Shown piece after piece: positions 20,640 through 26,682 of a stretch of 64,000 nt of DNA. The DNA is taken from positions 25,097 through 89,096 of the forward strand of contig JBOGSD010000068.1 of NCBI GenBank assembly GCA_050695215.1. Direction: 5' to 3'. Numbering within the stretch: position 1 is the stretch's first letter; each line of letters opens with the position of its first letter. Made by a program: the position numbers and the translations under genes. The notes under the pieces were generated by a model. It saw nothing but the letters and a program-made list of their open reading frames with translations. It did no database searches and was not told the DNA's origin. The DNA is from a bacterium (GTDB taxonomy: Bacteria; Sysuimicrobiota; Sysuimicrobiia; Sysuimicrobiales; Humicultoraceae).

Positions 20640-21251
20640 CTAGCGGCGGCGCAGGCGCCCCAGCAGCTCGCGTCCCCGGCGGGGTGTGATGGAATGGGGC
20701 GCCGGGGCCAGCCGGATGATCTCAAAGAGGCCCCCAAAGAGCGCGCGGATCTCTTCCTCCGAAACCGCAAAGGGCGGCCCCTCCGGCGGGTAGCCTGGGG
20801 GCAGGACCGGAAAGAAGAGCGCCAGCACCTCCCCCCCAGGGCGCAGCACGCCGGCGAGCACCTCGACGTACTCGCCACGGCGCGCCGGGCTGATCGCACA
20901 GAAGCACGTGTACTCCAGCGCATAGTCGAAGACTGCGGGAAAGCGGCCCGGAAGGGAAAAGAGGTCGGCCTGGAGGAAGGTGCAGGCCGCCCCCTCAGCC
21001 GCGGCCAGGGCGCGCGCGGCCCTCACCGCCGAGGGGGCATGATCGACGCCGGTCACGTCAAAGCCGGCCCGCGCAAAGAGCACGGCGTCATAGCCGCGGC
21101 CGCAGCCGGGGACCACCATCCGTCCCGGCGCGGGAGCGTCCGGGCCGGCCAGCAGATGGACGAACGACGGGGTGGGGCCGCCGAGGTCCCAGGCCGCGGT
21201 GCCCTGCCGGTACTGCGTCTCCCAGAACTCGGCGCGATCGACGTCCGTCAT
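20640..21251 (-). CDS. Thiopurine S-methyltransferase (TPMT) family SAM-dependent methyltransferase
   Basis: N-terminal W..W..aaWDLGG motif and GCGRGYD SAM-binding motif. Confidence 0.7.
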   Translation of the reverse strand: MTDVDRAEFWETQYRQGTAAWDLGGPTPSFVHLLAGPDAPAPGRMVVPGCGRGYDAVLFARAGFDVTGVDHAPSAVRAARALAAAEGAACTFLQADLFSLPGRFPAVFDYALEYTCFCAISPARRGEYVEVLAGVLRPGGEVLALFFPVLPPGYPPEGPPFAVSEEEIRALFGGLFEIIRLAPAPHSITPRRGRELLGRLRRR

Positions 21252-21316: not shown

Positions 21317-21760
21317 GTGAGACTGAAGATCGCGGCCCTCGTTCTGGCGGCCCTATTGCTGGGCGGCGCGGTCGGGGCCTACGCGCAGGACGTCATCACC
21401 ATCATCAAGACCGTCGGCATCGGGGTAGCGGTGCGGACCTTCGCGCCGCAGATCAACACCTTCATCAATAACCTGCTGCAGGCGCGGGACGCGGAGACGA
21501 AGGAGACGACCAAGGTCGTGCCGATTCTCTCCATCTCCATCGGCATCGGGACGCCGGGGCGGGCCACCATCGGCGCGGCGCAGGTGGCGGGGCCGAAGTC
21601 GGCGGTGGCGCGCACCCAGGCCGTCGCCGCCATCGACGCCAACTTCTCGGGCGTCTGGCAGATCCGCGCCCTCATCCCGGTGGACAGTCTGGAACCGTGG
21701 AAGCGGCTGCGCCGCGTGGTCGGCGTGGGCGTCTCCGCCATCATCGACGTCCGCATCTAG
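21317..21760 (+). CDS. Secreted hypothetical protein (147 aa)
   Basis: Signal peptide ending AYAQD. No recognised domain. Confidence 0.45.
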   Translation: MRLKIAALVLAALLLGGAVGAYAQDVITIIKTVGIGVAVRTFAPQINTFINNLLQARDAETKETTKVVPILSISIGIGTPGRATIGAAQVAGPKSAVARTQAVAAIDANFSGVWQIRALIPVDSLEPWKRLRRVVGVGVSAIIDVRI

Positions 21761-21856
21761 TCCCACGGCCGTCCGCATCGAGTTCCGCAGTCGGGCTTCT
21801 AGGGTGGAGTCCCAGCCTGTCACGGCTTTCCTTCGGGAAGGTCGTCACGGGTTTTC

Positions 21857-21956
21857 TGGTGGCGGAGGGCCCTGGGAATCGAACCCAGCGCGGAACCCGA
21901 GGCCCCGCCACCGGTTTTGAAGACCGGGACCCGCACCAGCGGACACTGCCCTCCGC
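21857..21956 (-). tRNA. selC: tRNA-Sec (selenocysteine tRNA, anticodon UCA)
   Basis: Reverse complement reads GCGGAGGG..GUCCGC-UGGU-GCGGGU..CCGGU-CUUCAAA-ACCGG..long variable arm..CUGGG-UUCGAUU-CCCAG..CCCUCCGC-CACCA. The anticodon loop CUUCAAA is identical to E. coli selC. 6-bp D-stem with 4-nt loop, long extra arm, about 100 nt total. The exact 5'/3' ends are uncertain by 1-3 nt because of the CCACCA tail. Confidence 0.75.
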
Positions 21957-22047
21957 ATCGCTCAAGCAGTCTTATCCTGAGAGGTATGCTATCATGAGCG
22001 CAAAGACCGGCGCGGGCCGTCATTCACGCCACGTTTCGGAGGACTCC

Positions 22048-23238
22048 ATGCGCCCTGCCGTCCTGCTCCTCGCCGCGCTGTTGGCGATCGTCCTCACTTT
22101 CCCCGGCTTCACCGCTCCGATTCCCTGTCCCGTCATCGAAGGCGTCGGGGTGGGCGCCGTGCGTATCGGCATGTCCGCCGCCGAGGGCCTCCGCCTGGCC
22201 GGTACGCCCGCCGGACGAGTCACGGGGACGCGGGCCCAGGAGACCGTTTACCTTTTTGCCACCACGCTGGCGCAGATCACGGTCGAAGGGGGCTTGGTCA
22301 GCCGCATCGCCACGCGCCATCCTACCTGCGTGACCGCCCAGGGGGTACGCATCGGCGACAGTGAAGCGCGGATGCGCGTCGTCTACGAGCGCGCTCCCGG
22401 TAGCCTGCGGGGGCGGGCGGGCGCGGTCACCCGATACGTGTTTCCGTTCACCGGCATCGAATTCATCCTCACCGACGGACGCGTGACCCTGATCGAGGTC
22501 TTCCGGCCCGACGCGCTTCCCGCCCGCGGGACGCCGACCCCAGCGGCGGCGGGAGGCGAGTCCACGGTCGTCTTTCGATCGCTGGCCGGCCGCGCCGACG
22601 GGACGAGTTTTGTGGTCACGGGGTCGGTCGCCAACGCGGGCGCTCCCCTCGCCCTGTTCGTCCAGGTGATCCTGCTCGGACCGGAAGGCCGGCAGGTTGG
22701 AGAAGGCACGGCCACGCTGGTGCCCAACCCGGTCGGCGGGGGTCGCGCCGGATCCTTCGAAGTGCGCCTGCCTCTCGACGAGATCGTCACCCGCTTCGTG
22801 GTCATCGTACGGCCGATGAACCGGCCCGCCACCGCGCTGGCGGAGACGTCGCAGGAGGTCAAGGACGCGGGGCAGTTCGCCGACGTCGTCATCGAACGCC
22901 TGCTGGAGGTGACGGTGCTGGGGGCGACCCTGGAGCGGGCCAGCGGAACCCACGCCGCGGTGACCAACCGGAGCTCGCTCAAGATCACCGGGCTGGTCAT
23001 CGAGATCGAGATGCGCCGTGTTTGCCGGGTGACGCCGGTCGGTAGCACACTGCCCCAGGTGCCCACGACCTTTACCGACATCCGCAAGGGGACGGTGCGG
23101 ATCGGCGAGCTCGCCCCGAACGCCCGCGTCGAGGTGCCTATCGACCTCTCCGCGACCGGGCCATGCCTGGGCGCCGGCGCTGAGTGGCAGGCCTCTTGGA
23201 AAGTCCTCTCGGCCAAGGTGGAAGAGGAAAAGAAGTAG
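22048..23238 (+). CDS. Secreted hypothetical protein (about 396 aa)
   Basis: Signal peptide starting MRPAVLLLAALLAIVL with a GGAGGA RBS. An alternative ATG is at 21994. The upstream part of the ORF-track ORF overlaps the tRNA-Sec gene and is rejected. Confidence 0.5.
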   Translation: MRPAVLLLAALLAIVLTFPGFTAPIPCPVIEGVGVGAVRIGMSAAEGLRLAGTPAGRVTGTRAQETVYLFATTLAQITVEGGLVSRIATRHPTCVTAQGVRIGDSEARMRVVYERAPGSLRGRAGAVTRYVFPFTGIEFILTDGRVTLIEVFRPDALPARGTPTPAAAGGESTVVFRSLAGRADGTSFVVTGSVANAGAPLALFVQVILLGPEGRQVGEGTATLVPNPVGGGRAGSFEVRLPLDEIVTRFVVIVRPMNRPATALAETSQEVKDAGQFADVVIERLLEVTVLGATLERASGTHAAVTNRSSLKITGLVIEIEMRRVCRVTPVGSTLPQVPTTFTDIRKGTVRIGELAPNARVEVPIDLSATGPCLGAGAEWQASWKVLSAKVEEEKK

Positions 23239-23242
23239 CGGG

Positions 23243-25249
23243 TTACTGAGCGCGCGGCGTGGCCGGTGGGGTCTCCCCGGCGCGAACGGCGAGGACCCGC
23301 CGGTCTCCTACCCGGCGGGTCAGGCGAACGCCGTCAAAATATTCGAGGAGCGCTAGCGCATATTTCCGGCTTGTCCCCAGCCCATCGCGCAGCGCCGCCA
23401 CGGTAATCTCTCCGGCGCGGTCAATGTGGGCGACGATCCTCTCCCTGATCTCTTCGAGCACCGCCGCGGCATAGTAGATGCCGGGCGCCACTTCGATGAG
23501 CGTCCCTTCTTCCTGCAGGGATTGGGCCGCGATGTGGAAGGCCGAGGGCTCGCCCCGCGGGCCGTGCGGGCCCCCTCCCGTTTGGCCGGCCGGGTGCGTC
23601 TCCACCTCCGCCAGTCCCGGCGGAGCGAAGCGCCCATCGGTCATCGCCGCCAGCAGGATCTCCCGCCACCGCCCCTCCTCGGGGGCATACCGGGGGCCCC
23701 ATCCGGAGAGGTGGACGAATCCCCGCGTTATACCGATGACCCCGGATGCTAAGAACCGGTCCAGCACCGCGCCGGCCAGACGATCGTCGGCCTCAGCCAG
23801 CACCCGCCGCCTCACCTCTTCCCGCGGCAGGCCGAGGCGCCAGGGCCTGCCTCGATGGGTCTCCTCCAGCAGCCGGACCAGACGCTCCCTGGCTCCCTCC
23901 ACGACCTCGTGCGCCAGCAGCCGGCCGCCGATCAGGAGGAGGTCGCCCGACGCCACCAGGGTCCGCAGCCTCTCGGCCAGCGTTGCGGCGGATTCGGCCA
24001 GGACGGAAGTGAGAGTCTCAGGCGTGGTCCCGGCCAGCCCGCGAGCCGAGACGGCCTGCCGCAGCACCGCCTCCGGAGGCGCGCCGGCCAGCGCCGCCAC
24101 CGTCTGCGCGGAGGCCGCCCCGCGCCGGCGCCGCGGCGGATCGGCCGCGAGGACCTCTCCGCCTCCCAGCGTGGTCAGCGGCGAGTAGCGTCGCAGCACG
24201 AAGCGGTCGCCCCGCGCCGCCACCACCGGCCGCTCAAAGCGCAGCTGCGCAGGGGCCTCCTCGCCAGGGGCGAGGAGGTCGCGGTCCAGCAGGGCGATGC
24301 GGCAGAGCGCTTCGTCGGTCCCGAGATAGAAGCGCAGCCGGGCCAGATGCGCCAGCGGCGGGGCACCCGCCAGCAGCGCCACGCGCACGTCCAGCAGGGA
24401 CGCGGGGCGCAAGGTTGCGGGCGTCGCCAGCACCGCACCTCGGGCCAGCGCCTCGCGCTCGGCGCCCACCAGGTTGAGCGCGGCCCGCGAGCCGGCCAGG
24501 ACTTCATCCACCCGCGTCCCGTGCCGCTGGATCTGGCGCACCCGGGCGGCCTCGCCGCCGGGGAGAACCGCCAGCGCGTCGCCGGTGCGGATGCGGCCGC
24601 TCCAGAGCGTCCCCGTGACGACGGTGCCGAACCCGGTCATGGTGAAGACCCGGTCGACGGGAAGGCGCACCGGACCCTCGGCGGACCGGGCCGTCAGGGT
24701 GTCGAGGCTGTGTCCGATCGCCCCCACCAGGTGGTCCAGGCCGGCGCCGGTCCGGGCGGAGACCCGGACGATCTGGGCGCCGTCGAGAAACGTCCCGGCC
24801 GAGAGGTGGCGCAAGTCCTCCTCGACCAGGGCCAGCCATTCCGCGTCGTCCACAAGATCGATCTTGGAGAGGACGATCAGTCCGCCGCGCGGGCGGAGAA
24901 ACCGCAGGATGTCCAGGTGCTCCCGAGTCTGCGGCATGATCCCCTCGTCCGCCGCCACCACCAGAAGCACGAGGTCCATCCCGCCTGCTCCGGCCAGCAT
25001 GGTGCGGATCAACCGCTCGTGGCCGGGTACGTCGACGATCCCGGCGCGCCGCCCGCCGGGGAGGTCGAGGTGAGCGAAGCCGAGGTCGATCGTCATCCCG
25101 CGCCGCTTCTCTTCATCCAGCCGGTCGGGGTCGATACCCGTGAGGGCCCGGACGAGGGCGCTCTTGCCGTGGTCGATGTGCCCCGCCGTGCCGATAACGT
25201 AGGCGGCGGGGGAGTCCGAGACGCCGGTTGGATCTGTCCCGATGCTCAC
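23243..25249 (-). CDS. selB: Selenocysteine-specific translation elongation factor SelB
   Basis: G-domain [23 protein letters not shown]-terminal winged-helix SECIS-binding domains. Start proposed at GTG 25249, overlapping the selA TGA as GTGA; the ORF-track N-terminal extension is rejected. Confidence 0.85.
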
Positions 25250-26682
25250 CGCAGCGCGGAGAAGGCCGCGACGACGGCCTCGACGTCGTCCGGCGAAAGC
25301 GTCCGTAGATTCAGCAGGAGAGCTTCGTCCTGAATGCGCGCGATCACCGGCGGACGAGCCTGGCGGAGCTGCGCCGCCCAGGCCTCCGCTCCGGCTCGGC
25401 GGGGACGCACCCGCACTGCCGACGACGACAGGCCGGCCTCGGGGAGCGCTCCTCCCCCCACCTGTGCCTCGGCGCCGACGACGGCCACCTCCGCGCCTTC
25501 TCCGAGTCGCTCTCTCAGGCGGTCCGCGAGCCGCTGCGCTCGCGCCTCCAATTCCTCGGGGCCGGCCGCCAGCATCTGCAGAATGGGAATCTGCGCCCAC
25601 GCCTCTCCGGGCGTCAGGTAATGGCGCAGCGTCGCCGCCAATGCGGCCAGGTCGAGCCGGTCGATGCGGAGCGCCCGCGCCAGGGGATGACCGCGGCAGC
25701 GGCTGACCGCCTCCTTCGTCCCTACCAGCAGGCCGGCCTGCGGGCCCCCCGCCAGCTTGTCTCCACTGAAGGTTACCAGCGCGGCGCCGGCGGTGACCGC
25801 GTCCTGCACCGTCGGCTCGCGCGGAAGGCCCCGCTCGGCCAGGTCCACCAGCGCGCCGCTGCCCAGGTCATACATGACGGGGATGCTGCGGCCGGCGGCC
25901 AGCGCCACCAGCTCGGGCACCGGCACCTCGTGGACGAACCCCGACATGGCGAAGTTGCTGCGGTGCACCTTCAGCACCAGCGCGGTCTGCGGCGTTAATG
26001 CCCGTTCATAGTCGGCCAGGTGGGTGCGGTTGGTGGTGCCCACCTCTACCAGCCGAGCGCCGCTTTGGGCCATCACCTCCGGCATGCGAAAGGAGCCGCC
26101 AATCTCCACGAGCTCGCCCCGTGAGACGATGACCTCGCGTCCCGCCGCGAGGGCGGCGAGACCGAGGAGGACTGCCGCCGCGTTGTTATTGACGGCCAGA
26201 GCGGCCTCTGCACCGCTGATCTCTTCCAGCAGCGTCTCGACGTGCGCCTGCCGCGATCCCCGGTCGCCGGTTTCGGGATCGATCTCCAGGAAGGTATAGC
26301 CGGTCAGCGCCGCCCGCACCGCCTCCTGGGCGGCCGCACTGAGCGGTGCTCTTCCTAGGTTGGTGTGAATGAGGATGCCGGTGGCGTTGACCGCGCGCAC
26401 CAGTGAGGGATGGCCATACCAGGCGAGGAGGCGGGCGCTGTCGGCGAGGACCTGCTCCGGAGCCCATCCGGCCGGAGCCGTCCCCTCGATTAGCCCGCTT
26501 CGGGCCTCCTTCAGCAGCCGGCTCCTCGCCGTCTCCAGCGCCTGGCGGACGAAGCGGGCGGCCAGCGGTCGTGGAATACCGTCAAGACGACCGGAGCCTT
26601 CCAGCTGCGAAAGCACGCGCTCTACCGAGGGGAGCTGACGAAGCCGCACATCACGCGGGTCAGGAGGGTCGGTCACCCCCAC
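25246..26682 (-). CDS. selA: L-seryl-tRNA(Sec) selenium transferase SelA
   Basis: SelA signature VNATGILIHTNLGRA. PLP-Lys region FSGDKLAGGPQAG. Confidence 0.88.
   Translation of the reverse strand: MGVTDPPDPRDVRLRQLPSVERVLSQLEGSGRLDGIPRPLAARFVRQALETARSRLLKEARSGLIEGTAPAGWAPEQVLADSARLLAWYGHPSLVRAVNATGILIHTNLGRAPLSAAAQEAVRAALTGYTFLEIDPETGDRGSRQAHVETLLEEISGAEAALAVNNNAAAVLLGLAALAAGREVIVSRGELVEIGGSFRMPEVMAQSGARLVEVGTTNRTHLADYERALTPQTALVLKVHRSNFAMSGFVHEVPVPELVALAAGRSIPVMYDLGSGALVDLAERGLPREPTVQDAVTAGAALVTFSGDKLAGGPQAGLLVGTKEAVSRCRGHPLARALRIDRLDLAALAATLRHYLTPGEAWAQIPILQMLAAGPEELEARAQRLADRLRERLGEGAEVAVVGAEAQVGGGALPEAGLSSSAVRVRPRRAGAEAWAAQLRQARPPVIARIQDEALLLNLRTLSPDDVEAVVAAFSALR

What the first reader, a model, noticed from the sequence alone, without database searches (positions are those of the whole stretch)
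21857..21956. tRNA-Sec with an unusual CCACCA 3' tail and an ambiguous acceptor stem
The reverse complement folds as a Sec tRNA. It has a 6-bp D-stem with 4-nt loop, anticodon loop CUUCAAA, a long extra arm and a UUCGAUU T-loop. The 3' end reads ...CCCUCCGC-CACCA, a duplicated CCA-like tail. The acceptor stem can be drawn as 8 or 9 bp. A CCACCA tail on a tRNA gene is known as a quality-control degradation tag when added post-transcriptionally; seeing it genomically encoded is odd.
Basis: seen in the sequence. Interest (0 to 1): 0.5.

Follow-up and report, generated by a model that had tools for sequence, protein, structure and literature searches.

The report
Ordinary selenocysteine tRNA gene, CCA-starting trailer
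This is a normal bacterial selenocysteine tRNA gene that ends in the usual G-CCA; the "second CCA" is just the first three bases of the unconserved DNA after the gene, so it is ordinary.

Summary
The minus strand of 21860-21954 is a genuine selC (tRNA-Sec, anticodon UCA). ARAGORN calls it, Rfam RF01852 scores 70.1 bits (threshold 47), and selA and selB lie just upstream on the same strand. Both programs place the 3' end so that discriminator G73 (21863) is followed by one CCA (21862-21860).

Comparative data agree. Contigs L198-L200 carry a 95/95 identical tRNA and a largely matching upstream region, but similarity collapses right after the first CCA (their trailer starts ATGACA). The next relative, L179, has CACGTC. 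Among 106 other selC genes with an encoded CCA, 4 trailers start with CCA against 1.8-2.5 expected (P 0.10-0.25).

The "ambiguous" acceptor stem is the bacterial 8/5 fold: seven Watson-Crick pairs plus a non-canonical A·G at the eighth position. Relatives have G-C or C-G there, and non-Watson-Crick eighth pairs are common in other bacteria. The 9-bp drawing either breaks a T-stem pair that is standard in 128/128 sequences or borrows two leader bases.

CCA-like native trailers are already documented in E. coli. Ordinary; low interest.

The parts
21860..21954 (-). selC gene: tRNA-Sec(UCA), 95 nt including the encoded G73-CCA
   Evidence: ARAGORN 21860..21954. Rfam RF01852 21864..21954, 70.1 bits. 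Cloverleaf MFE -50.6 kcal/mol. 95/95 identical in L198-L200.
21947..21954 (-). Acceptor stem 5' strand GGAGGGCA; A at 21947 is the 5' side of the non-canonical eighth pair
   Evidence: Sequence; register from the T-loop anchor. In the family the eighth pair is A·G 22, G-C 9, A·A 7, C-G 1 (21 A·G, plus the window).
21929..21944 (-). D arm: 6-bp stem GUCCGC/GCGGGU (outer G·U and U·G) with 4-nt loop UGGU
   Evidence: Rfam alignment. Compensatory changes in 4 of 6 pairs among 15 relatives.
21910..21928 (-). Anticodon arm: 5 Watson-Crick pairs plus a C·U at the top, loop CUUCAAA, anticodon UCA at 21918-21920
21889..21909 (-). Long variable arm (8-bp stem, 3-nt loop in the MFE fold)
   Evidence: Compensatory changes in all 7 predicted variable-arm pairs across relatives.
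21872..21888 (-). T arm: 5-bp stem CUGGG/CCCAG, loop UUCGAUU
   Evidence: The outer pair is a standard pair in 39/39 family and 89/89 genome-set sequences and covaries G-C/C-G.
21864..21871 (-). Acceptor stem 3' strand GGCCCUCC; G at 21871 faces A 21947
21860..21863 (-). Discriminator G73 (21863) and the encoded 3' CCA (21862-21860): the inferred mature 3' end
   Evidence: The ARAGORN gene ends at 21860. G73 is the 14th base after the T-loop, as in the Secmarker rule (PMC5330540). Conservation with L198 stops exactly here.
21857..21859 (-). Second 'CCA': the first three bases of the 3' trailer, not part of the tRNA
   Evidence: Not conserved: L198-L200 have ATG and L179 has CAC. 4/106 other selC genes against 1.8-2.5 expected.
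21955..21956 (-). Leader bases G-2 and C-1, which could pair with C74/G73 in the precursor (source of the '9-bp' drawing)
   Evidence: Among the 38 other family sequences, -1 is C in 29 and GC occupies -2/-1 in 21, but it is variable (TT, TC, CT, GG, CA also occur).
21986..21994 (-). TGATAGCAT inside a 22-nt block (ATGATAGCATACCTCTCAGGAT) shared identically with L198; possible extended -10 promoter for selC (inferred only)
   Evidence: Upstream alignment with L198 and L179. The consensus promoter scan found nothing.
23243..25600 (-). selB (Sec-specific elongation factor). The true start is probably internal, because the first ~130 aa of the ORF are Arg/Gly-rich and overlap selA.
   Evidence: Pfam GTP_EFTU, SelB-wing_2/3, Beta-barrel_SelB.
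25246..26682 (-). selA (selenocysteine synthase)
   Evidence: Pfam SelA, E 2.1e-145.

Best explanation
21860-21954 (minus strand) is a standard bacterial selC gene from an Armatimonadota-like, ~70% GC organism. It sits downstream of selA-selB.

Inferred mechanism: it is transcribed from its own promoter in the 94-nt gap before the divergent gene. RNase P cuts before G1 (21954). The 3' trailer, which happens to begin CCAGAAAAC, is removed down to the encoded G73-CCA (21863-21860). The mature 95-nt tRNA has the bacterial 8/5 acceptor/T branch, with a non-canonical A·G as its eighth position. It is serylated via G73 and the long variable arm, converted by SelA and delivered by SelB.

The second CCA is neutral trailer sequence with no role as a tail or tag.

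Shown here: the gene call, the fold, the covariation, the sel context, and the loss of conservation exactly after the first CCA. Inferred: the processing steps and the promoter.
For: ARAGORN and Rfam both call tRNA-Sec and leave a single G-CCA end. selA and selB are 1.3-4.7 kb upstream on the same strand.

L198-L200 carry a 95/95 identical tRNA. Their 100 nt upstream is largely identical, including a 22-nt identical block, but the alignment breaks down immediately after GCCA (trailer ATGACA). L179 differs from the window at one base of the tRNA, has SelA 72% identical and keeps the same gene order; its trailer is CACGTC.

Trailers starting with CCA: 2/67 in the genome set and 2/39 in the acceptor-family set. 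That is 4/106 against 1.8-2.5 expected, P 0.10-0.25. The other CCACCA lineages (L123/L171/L191 and L127) have non-homologous trailers and different downstream contexts. ARAGORN also ends those genes at the first CCA.

The 8/5 fold is supported. The outer T-stem pair is a standard pair in 128/128 sequences and covaries G-C/C-G. The alternative ninth acceptor pair forms in only 9/39 and 33/89. The eighth position is G-C or C-G in 10 family members and A·G or A·A in 29.

Literature: bacterial tRNA-Sec is 8/5, has G73, and 93% of the genes encode CCA (PMC5330540). E. coli has native CCA-like trailers such as tRNA-Asp CCACCC, which are matured rather than degraded (PMC5824355).
Against: No RNA data: the mature ends are inferred, not mapped. 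Within the closest syntenic subclade, 2 of 7 other lineages also have CCA-CCA. That is nominally more than expected, but the subclade was picked after looking. The organism's 3'-processing nucleases are unknown. In E. coli, RNase T handles C-rich trailers about 20-fold more slowly (PMC5824355), so some kinetic effect on maturation cannot be excluded.
Confidence: 0.93

Rival explanations
1. The templated CCACCA is functional. After endonucleolytic cleavage and trimming, the precursor passes through or stalls at a tRNA-CCACCA or tRNA-CCACC form that mimics the CCA-adding enzyme's degradation tag. This would slow maturation or divert part of the tRNA-Sec pool to RNase R-type decay, acting as a built-in brake on tRNA-Sec level.
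For: RNase T removes a CCACCA extension about 20-fold more slowly than an AU-rich trailer, and RNase R degrades both (PMC5824355). The tRNA starts with G1G2, and CCA-CCA recurs in three lineages of the clade (window, L123/L171/L191, L127).
Against: The relative with the identical tRNA (L198-L200) and the next closest (L179) lack it. The overall frequency is at chance. Trailers of the three lineages are not homologous. RNase T is not known to be present in this phylum (own knowledge). E. coli matures its own CCACCC trailer normally.
Confidence: 0.04
2. Alternative register: the mature tRNA runs from G-2 (21956) to the second CCA (21857). It would have a 9-bp Watson-Crick acceptor stem GCGGAGGGC/GCCCUCCGC and a 5-nt CACCA single-stranded end.
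For: The two leader bases GC are complementary to G73 and C74. GC at -2/-1 occurs in 21 of 38 family members.
Against: This gives a 9 (+A·G) + 5 branch of 14-15 positions, which is known for no tRNA-Sec (8/5 or 9/4 = 13; PMC5330540). It would have no G73 discriminator four bases from the end, yet G73 is required for serylation. Leader bases vary in relatives (TT, TC, CT, GG, CA), whereas G1 and G2 are invariant. Relatives with GC leaders lack a second CCA (L198, L179). A pyrimidine at -1 is a general RNase P substrate preference (own knowledge).
Confidence: 0.02
3. The second CCA is a mutational by-product: a 3-nt slippage duplication of the CCA end, or a scar of an integrative element that used selC as its attachment site. 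It would have no function.
For: selC of this clade is clearly an integration hot spot. About 17 metagenome loci carry only the 3' half of this tRNA with unrelated upstream DNA. Several genomes show tandem duplications of the acceptor 3' end after selC (L012, L101, L118).
Against: There is no second copy of the tRNA 3' half anywhere in the 64-kb window, even with 3 mismatches allowed. Three bases are too few to tell duplication from chance. This concerns origin only and is compatible with the best explanation.
Confidence: 0.2

Closest known systems
Bacterial tRNA-Sec (selC; Rfam RF01852; 8/5 fold as in E. coli and Aquifex aeolicus)
   Same: UCA anticodon; 13-position acceptor/T branch with a 5-bp T-stem; 6-bp D-stem with 4-nt loop; long variable arm; G73; encoded CCA; linkage to selA/selB.
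   Different: The eighth acceptor position is A·G instead of the Watson-Crick C-G of E. coli. The top anticodon-stem position is C·U. Both are shared with relatives, and non-Watson-Crick eighth pairs are common in the 89-genome sample (65 of 89).
CCACCA degradation tag added by the CCA-adding enzyme (Wilusz et al. 2011; E. coli data in PMC5824355)
   Same: The six-base string CCACCA follows the discriminator, and the tRNA begins with GG.
   Different: Here the string is DNA-templated, the second CCA lies in a precursor trailer, and nothing indicates an unstable acceptor stem (seven pairs, six of them G-C). The tag is by definition post-transcriptional.
Native C-rich or CCA-like 3' trailers of E. 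coli tRNA genes (e.g. tRNA-Asp(GUC) CCA-CCC; PMC5824355)
   Same: A genomically encoded CCA is followed by a trailer that resembles the tag. The precursor is destined for maturation, not decay.
   Different: Different organism and tRNA. Here the trailer is CCA-CCA-GAAAAC.
Bacterial 7/5 (12-bp) tRNA-Sec variants and allo-tRNAs (PMC5330540; PMC5389517)
   Same: Only seven Watson-Crick acceptor pairs.
   Different: [quoted passage not shown] This tRNA has eight, with the eighth facing a purine, so the 13-position geometry is kept.

Membership tests
Bacterial tRNA-Sec (selC, RF01852) | Covariance-model score above the curated threshold | tested here: met
   70.1 bits against a gathering score of 47, E 2.7e-12, full-length model match 1-91.
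Bacterial tRNA-Sec (selC, RF01852) | Anticodon UCA in a 7-nt loop | tested here: met
   ARAGORN gives anticodon tca at position 35; the loop is CUUCAAA.
Bacterial tRNA-Sec (selC, RF01852) | 13-position acceptor/T branch in the 8/5 arrangement, with G73 as the 14th base after the T-loop | tested here: met
   5 + 8 residues, then G, then CCA. The T-stem outer pair is standard in 128/128 sequences and covaries. The eighth acceptor position is a non-canonical A·G.
Bacterial tRNA-Sec (selC, RF01852) | 6-bp D-stem with 4-nt D-loop, and a long variable arm | tested here: met
   with compensatory changes in both arms.
Bacterial tRNA-Sec (selC, RF01852) | Genome encodes the Sec machinery (SelA, SelB) | tested here: met
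   Pfam SelA E 2.1e-145; SelB domains. Gene order is conserved in L179, L151 and L131. selD was not looked for.
Bacterial tRNA-Sec (selC, RF01852) | Serylation, conversion to Sec-tRNA and SelB-dependent UGA decoding | not testable with these tools
   Needs biochemistry.
CCACCA degradation tag | Second CCA added post-transcriptionally by the CCA-adding enzyme | tested here: not met
   The second CCA is in the DNA at 21857-21859.
CCACCA degradation tag | The RNA species actually ends in CCACCA | not testable with these tools
   No RNA data. Gene finders end the tRNA at the first CCA.
CCACCA degradation tag | Structurally unstable acceptor stem together with G1G2 | tested here: inconclusive
   G1G2 is present. 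The stem has seven pairs, six of them G-C, and the MFE cloverleaf is -50.6 kcal/mol. The only mismatch is at the T-stem junction and is lineage-typical.
9/4-fold tRNA-Sec (archaeal/eukaryotic type) | 9-bp acceptor stem with 4-bp T-stem | tested here: not met
   The 9/4 register gives two mismatches. The ninth pair forms in 9/39 and 33/89 sequences, against 39/39 and 89/89 for the fifth T-stem pair.
7/5 (12-bp) bacterial tRNA-Sec variants | [quoted passage not shown] | tested here: not met
   Eight residues, GGCCCUCC.

The most novel reading that the evidence does not exclude
A DNA-templated CCA-CCA after selC has arisen repeatedly in this Armatimonadota-like clade (window, L123/L171/L191, L127). 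It produces a precursor whose trimming intermediates mimic the CCACCA/CCACC degradation tag. That would give a hard-wired slow-maturation or decay-prone tRNA-Sec, which limits Sec-tRNA supply.
Probability: 0.04. Interest if true: 0.4.

Novelty: already known. Interest (0 to 1): 0.08.

Why it matters
It matters little. The value is in clearing the flag: the gene is a textbook selC, and the apparent double CCA is a coincidence of trailer sequence. The case is a reminder that in bacteria with encoded CCA, a tag-like CCACCA string in DNA or in RNA-seq reads can be precursor trailer rather than a quality-control mark. PMC5824355 already made this point for E. coli. The by-products are modestly useful. 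Non-Watson-Crick eighth acceptor pairs are frequent in bacterial tRNA-Sec, at the position reported as an EF-Tu antideterminant in E. coli. In this clade selC is a busy integration site.

Tried and rejected
1. Promoter and terminator consensus scan of 21500-22300: nothing found. The promoter proposal therefore rests only on a conserved upstream block.
2. A second copy of the tRNA 3' half in the window, which would mark an island boundary: none with up to 3 mismatches. The 11-mer hits are near the chance count.
3. Folding the precursor with 20-nt flanks, to look for a leader-trailer helix: the MFE is not better than shuffles (z -0.40) and the centroid keeps only the cloverleaf arms.
4. Looking up the window's SelA in public assemblies: this returned only a 3.9-kb Logan contig without selC.
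5. Extending the sample of close relatives through homologues of the neighbouring 147-aa protein: only P0001 gave contigs with selC. P0002, P0003, P0005, P0007, P0010, P0011 and P0013 sit in other contexts or on contigs that end too early.
6. Enrichment of CC at trailer positions 1-2 (12/67 in the genome set): a mild excess in a high-GC sample, not pursued.
7. Enrichment of C at -1 (34/67 and 29/38): read as the general pyrimidine preference at -1 in GC-rich genomes. No non-Sec tRNA control was available, because almost no other tRNAs from this clade lie in the fetched loci.
8. The first Pfam call failed on a frame error and was repeated.

Full report
**What is at the coordinates**

Read on the minus strand, 21954 to 21860 is GGAGGGCA GU GUCCGC UGGU GCGGGU CCCGGU CUUCAAA ACCGGU GGCGGGGCCUCGGGUUCCGCG CUGGG UUCGAUU CCCAG GGCCCUCC G CCA. 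It is preceded by ...GAGCGAUGC and followed by CCAGAAAACCCG.

- ARAGORN finds one tRNA in the whole 64-kb window: tRNA-SeC, anticodon tca, at 21860..21954.
- The only Rfam hit at gathering threshold is RF01852 tRNA-Sec at 21864..21954, 70.1 bits against a threshold of 47, E 2.7e-12.
- The 95-mer folds on its own into the cloverleaf at -50.6 kcal/mol, with an 8-bp variable arm.
- On the same strand upstream lie selA (25246-26682, Pfam SelA E 2.1e-145) and selB (23243-25600, GTP_EFTU plus SelB winged-helix and beta-barrel domains).

The identification as selC is secure.

**Where the gene ends**

The T-loop is followed by 5 T-stem bases and 8 acceptor bases. Then come G (21863) and CCA (21862-21860). 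This matches the rule used for bacterial tRNA-Sec, in which G73 is the 14th base after position 61 and 93% of the genes encode CCA (PMC5330540).

ARAGORN ends the gene at 21860. Rfam's model, which omits the discriminator and CCA, ends at 21864. The second CCA (21859-21857) therefore falls in the 3' trailer.

**Relatives**

Two collection scans gave selC loci to compare:

- A pattern scan of species-representative genomes returned 120 selC loci from many phyla.
- A scan of metagenome contigs for the same acceptor 3' strand returned 76 loci. Most of these are full-length selC genes of one family.

In that family the gene order PHP-selA-selB-(396-aa gene)-selC-(147-aa gene)-...-MutS recurs. Source names on homologues of the 147-aa neighbour, and on L013, point to Armatimonadota.

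The closest relatives settle the question.

- Contigs L198-L200 were reached through a 93%-identical homologue of the 147-aa neighbour. They carry a tRNA identical to the window's at 95 of 95 positions, and the 100 nt upstream largely match, including a 22-nt identical block. The alignment breaks down at the base after GCCA, where their trailer starts ATGACA.
- L179 has SelA 72% identical and the same gene order. Its tRNA differs at one base (C38), and its trailer is CACGTC.

Sequence conservation therefore marks the first CCA as the end of the functional unit.

**Is CCA-CCA more frequent than chance?**

I parsed all loci in one register anchored on the T-loop.

- In the genome set, 89 genes have G73 and 67 of them encode CCA. 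Two of the 67 have a trailer starting with CCA (L085, L099).
- Among 39 distinct family sequences, counting the L198 lineage, two independent lineages have it (L123/L171/L191 and L127).
- The total is 4 of 106. The expectation is 1.8 from each locus's CCA trinucleotide frequency, or 2.5 from position-specific trailer composition. P is 0.10 to 0.25.
- The trailers of the three CCACCA lineages, including the window, are not homologous and lie in different downstream contexts.
- ARAGORN ends all those genes at the first CCA too.

If one picks only the nearest syntenic subclade after the fact, 2 of 7 other lineages have CCA-CCA. That is nominally high. But the two nearest relatives lack it, so I read it as chance, or at most a recurrent 3-nt slippage.

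**The acceptor stem**

Seven pairs are Watson-Crick (G1-C to C7-G). The eighth position is A (21947) opposite G (21871).

- In the family, counting the window, this position is A·G in 22 sequences, A·A in 7, G-C in 9 and C-G in 1. It is a helical position that some lineages fill with a Watson-Crick pair.
- Across the genome sample, 65 of 89 selC genes have no standard pair here. In the 67 CCA-encoding genes the commonest types are U·C, G·A, A·C and G·G.
- The fifth (outer) T-stem pair is a standard pair in 39/39 and 89/89 sequences and switches between G-C and C-G. The alternative ninth acceptor pair of a 9/4 fold forms in only 9/39 and 33/89.

The fold is therefore the bacterial 8/5 type.

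GC at those positions is common in the family (21 of 38), but TT, TC, CT, GG and CA also occur, whereas G1 and G2 never vary. That reading would also give a 14-15 position branch with no G73 four bases from the end, which no tRNA-Sec has.

In E. coli, the last acceptor pair and the first two T-stem pairs of tRNA-Sec are reported as EF-Tu antideterminants (PMC6267555, citing Rudinger 1996). A non-canonical eighth pair fits that role, but this is inference.

**How it most likely works**

- Shown: the gene, the fold, the covariation, the sel context and the conservation boundary.
- Inferred from established bacterial tRNA biology: transcription starts in the 94-nt gap between selC and the divergent 396-aa gene. 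The conserved block there contains TGATAGCAT at 21994-21986, a possible extended -10, although the consensus scan found nothing.
- Inferred: RNase P cuts 5' of G1 to leave the 8-position stem, as in E. coli (PMC13449736).
- Inferred: the trailer is removed down to the encoded CCA, followed by serylation, SelA conversion and SelB delivery.

**Comparison with the CCACCA tag**

The tag is added after transcription by the CCA-adding enzyme to unstable tRNAs. Here the string is templated in DNA and the stem is stable.

E. coli itself has native trailers that resemble the tag, for example tRNA-Asp CCA-CCC. RNase T trims such C-rich ends about 20-fold more slowly, while RNase R does not discriminate (PMC5824355). 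A small kinetic effect on maturation cannot be excluded. That is the only non-ordinary reading left, and I put it at about 4%.

**Verdict**

This is an ordinary selC gene with a normal G73-CCA end. The second CCA is unconserved trailer. The acceptor stem is the usual 8/5 type with a lineage-typical non-canonical eighth pair. It is already known biology and of low interest.

Noticed in passing
L126 (second copy), L129, L141, L150, L153, L163, L165, L168, L172, L178, L181, L183, L186, L188, L189, L190, L193: These metagenome loci carry only the 3' half of this tRNA-Sec (anticodon loop to GCCA) behind unrelated DNA. L126, L150 and contig Ga0101943_1000064 (L139 + L141) hold a full copy and a partial copy. 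This looks like att-site repeats of integrative elements that target selC in this clade. The window itself has no such repeat.
   Followed up: partly
L126, L128, L134, L149, L150, L156, L161, L174, L192: A sub-lineage of full-length selC genes has anticodon loop C-C-U-C-A-A-A, that is C33 in place of the near-universal U33. It is seen on several independent contigs next to selA/selB.
   Followed up: no
L142, L157, L179: These have C38 instead of A38 in the anticodon loop (CUUCAAC), including the window's second-closest relative.
   Followed up: no
genome-set loci L002-L121: In 65 of 89 bacterial selC genes with this anticodon-stem type, the eighth acceptor position is not a standard pair. The T-stem outer pair is G·U in 61 of 89. 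Both lie in the region reported as the EF-Tu antideterminant in E. coli.
   Followed up: partly
L012, L101, L118, L033, L088: Short tandem duplications of the acceptor 3' end directly after selC, for example L101 CTCCCGCCACCTCCCGCCACC and L118 CCTCCGCCATCCTCCGCCAC.
   Followed up: no
window 21317-21760 (+): A 147-aa protein with a signal peptide, convergent with selC. It has no Pfam match but 2544 homologues at E <= 1e-10. Some sources label homologues 'predicted small secreted protein' or YczE. Its position next to selC is kept in several relatives.
   Followed up: partly
window ~22049-23238 (+): A 396-aa protein with a signal or lipoprotein-like N-terminus and no Pfam match, divergent from selC and lying between selB and selC. 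The same arrangement is found in L179, L177, L151, L123/L171 and L131.
   Followed up: partly
window 20640-21251 (-): A TPMT-family methyltransferase two genes from selC. The linkage is kept in L198, L199, L201 and L212. From my own knowledge, bacterial TPMT homologues have been linked to selenium and tellurium methylation, so a selenium-related role is conceivable.
   Followed up: no
window 23243-25600 (-): The selB ORF as listed has a ~130-aa Arg/Gly-rich N-terminal extension that overlaps the end of selA. The real start is probably internal, near the selA stop at 25246.
   Followed up: no
L122 and L176: Unrelated hits of the acceptor pattern: dense arrays of 28-29 tRNA genes within 5.8 and 13.5 kb.
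   Followed up: no
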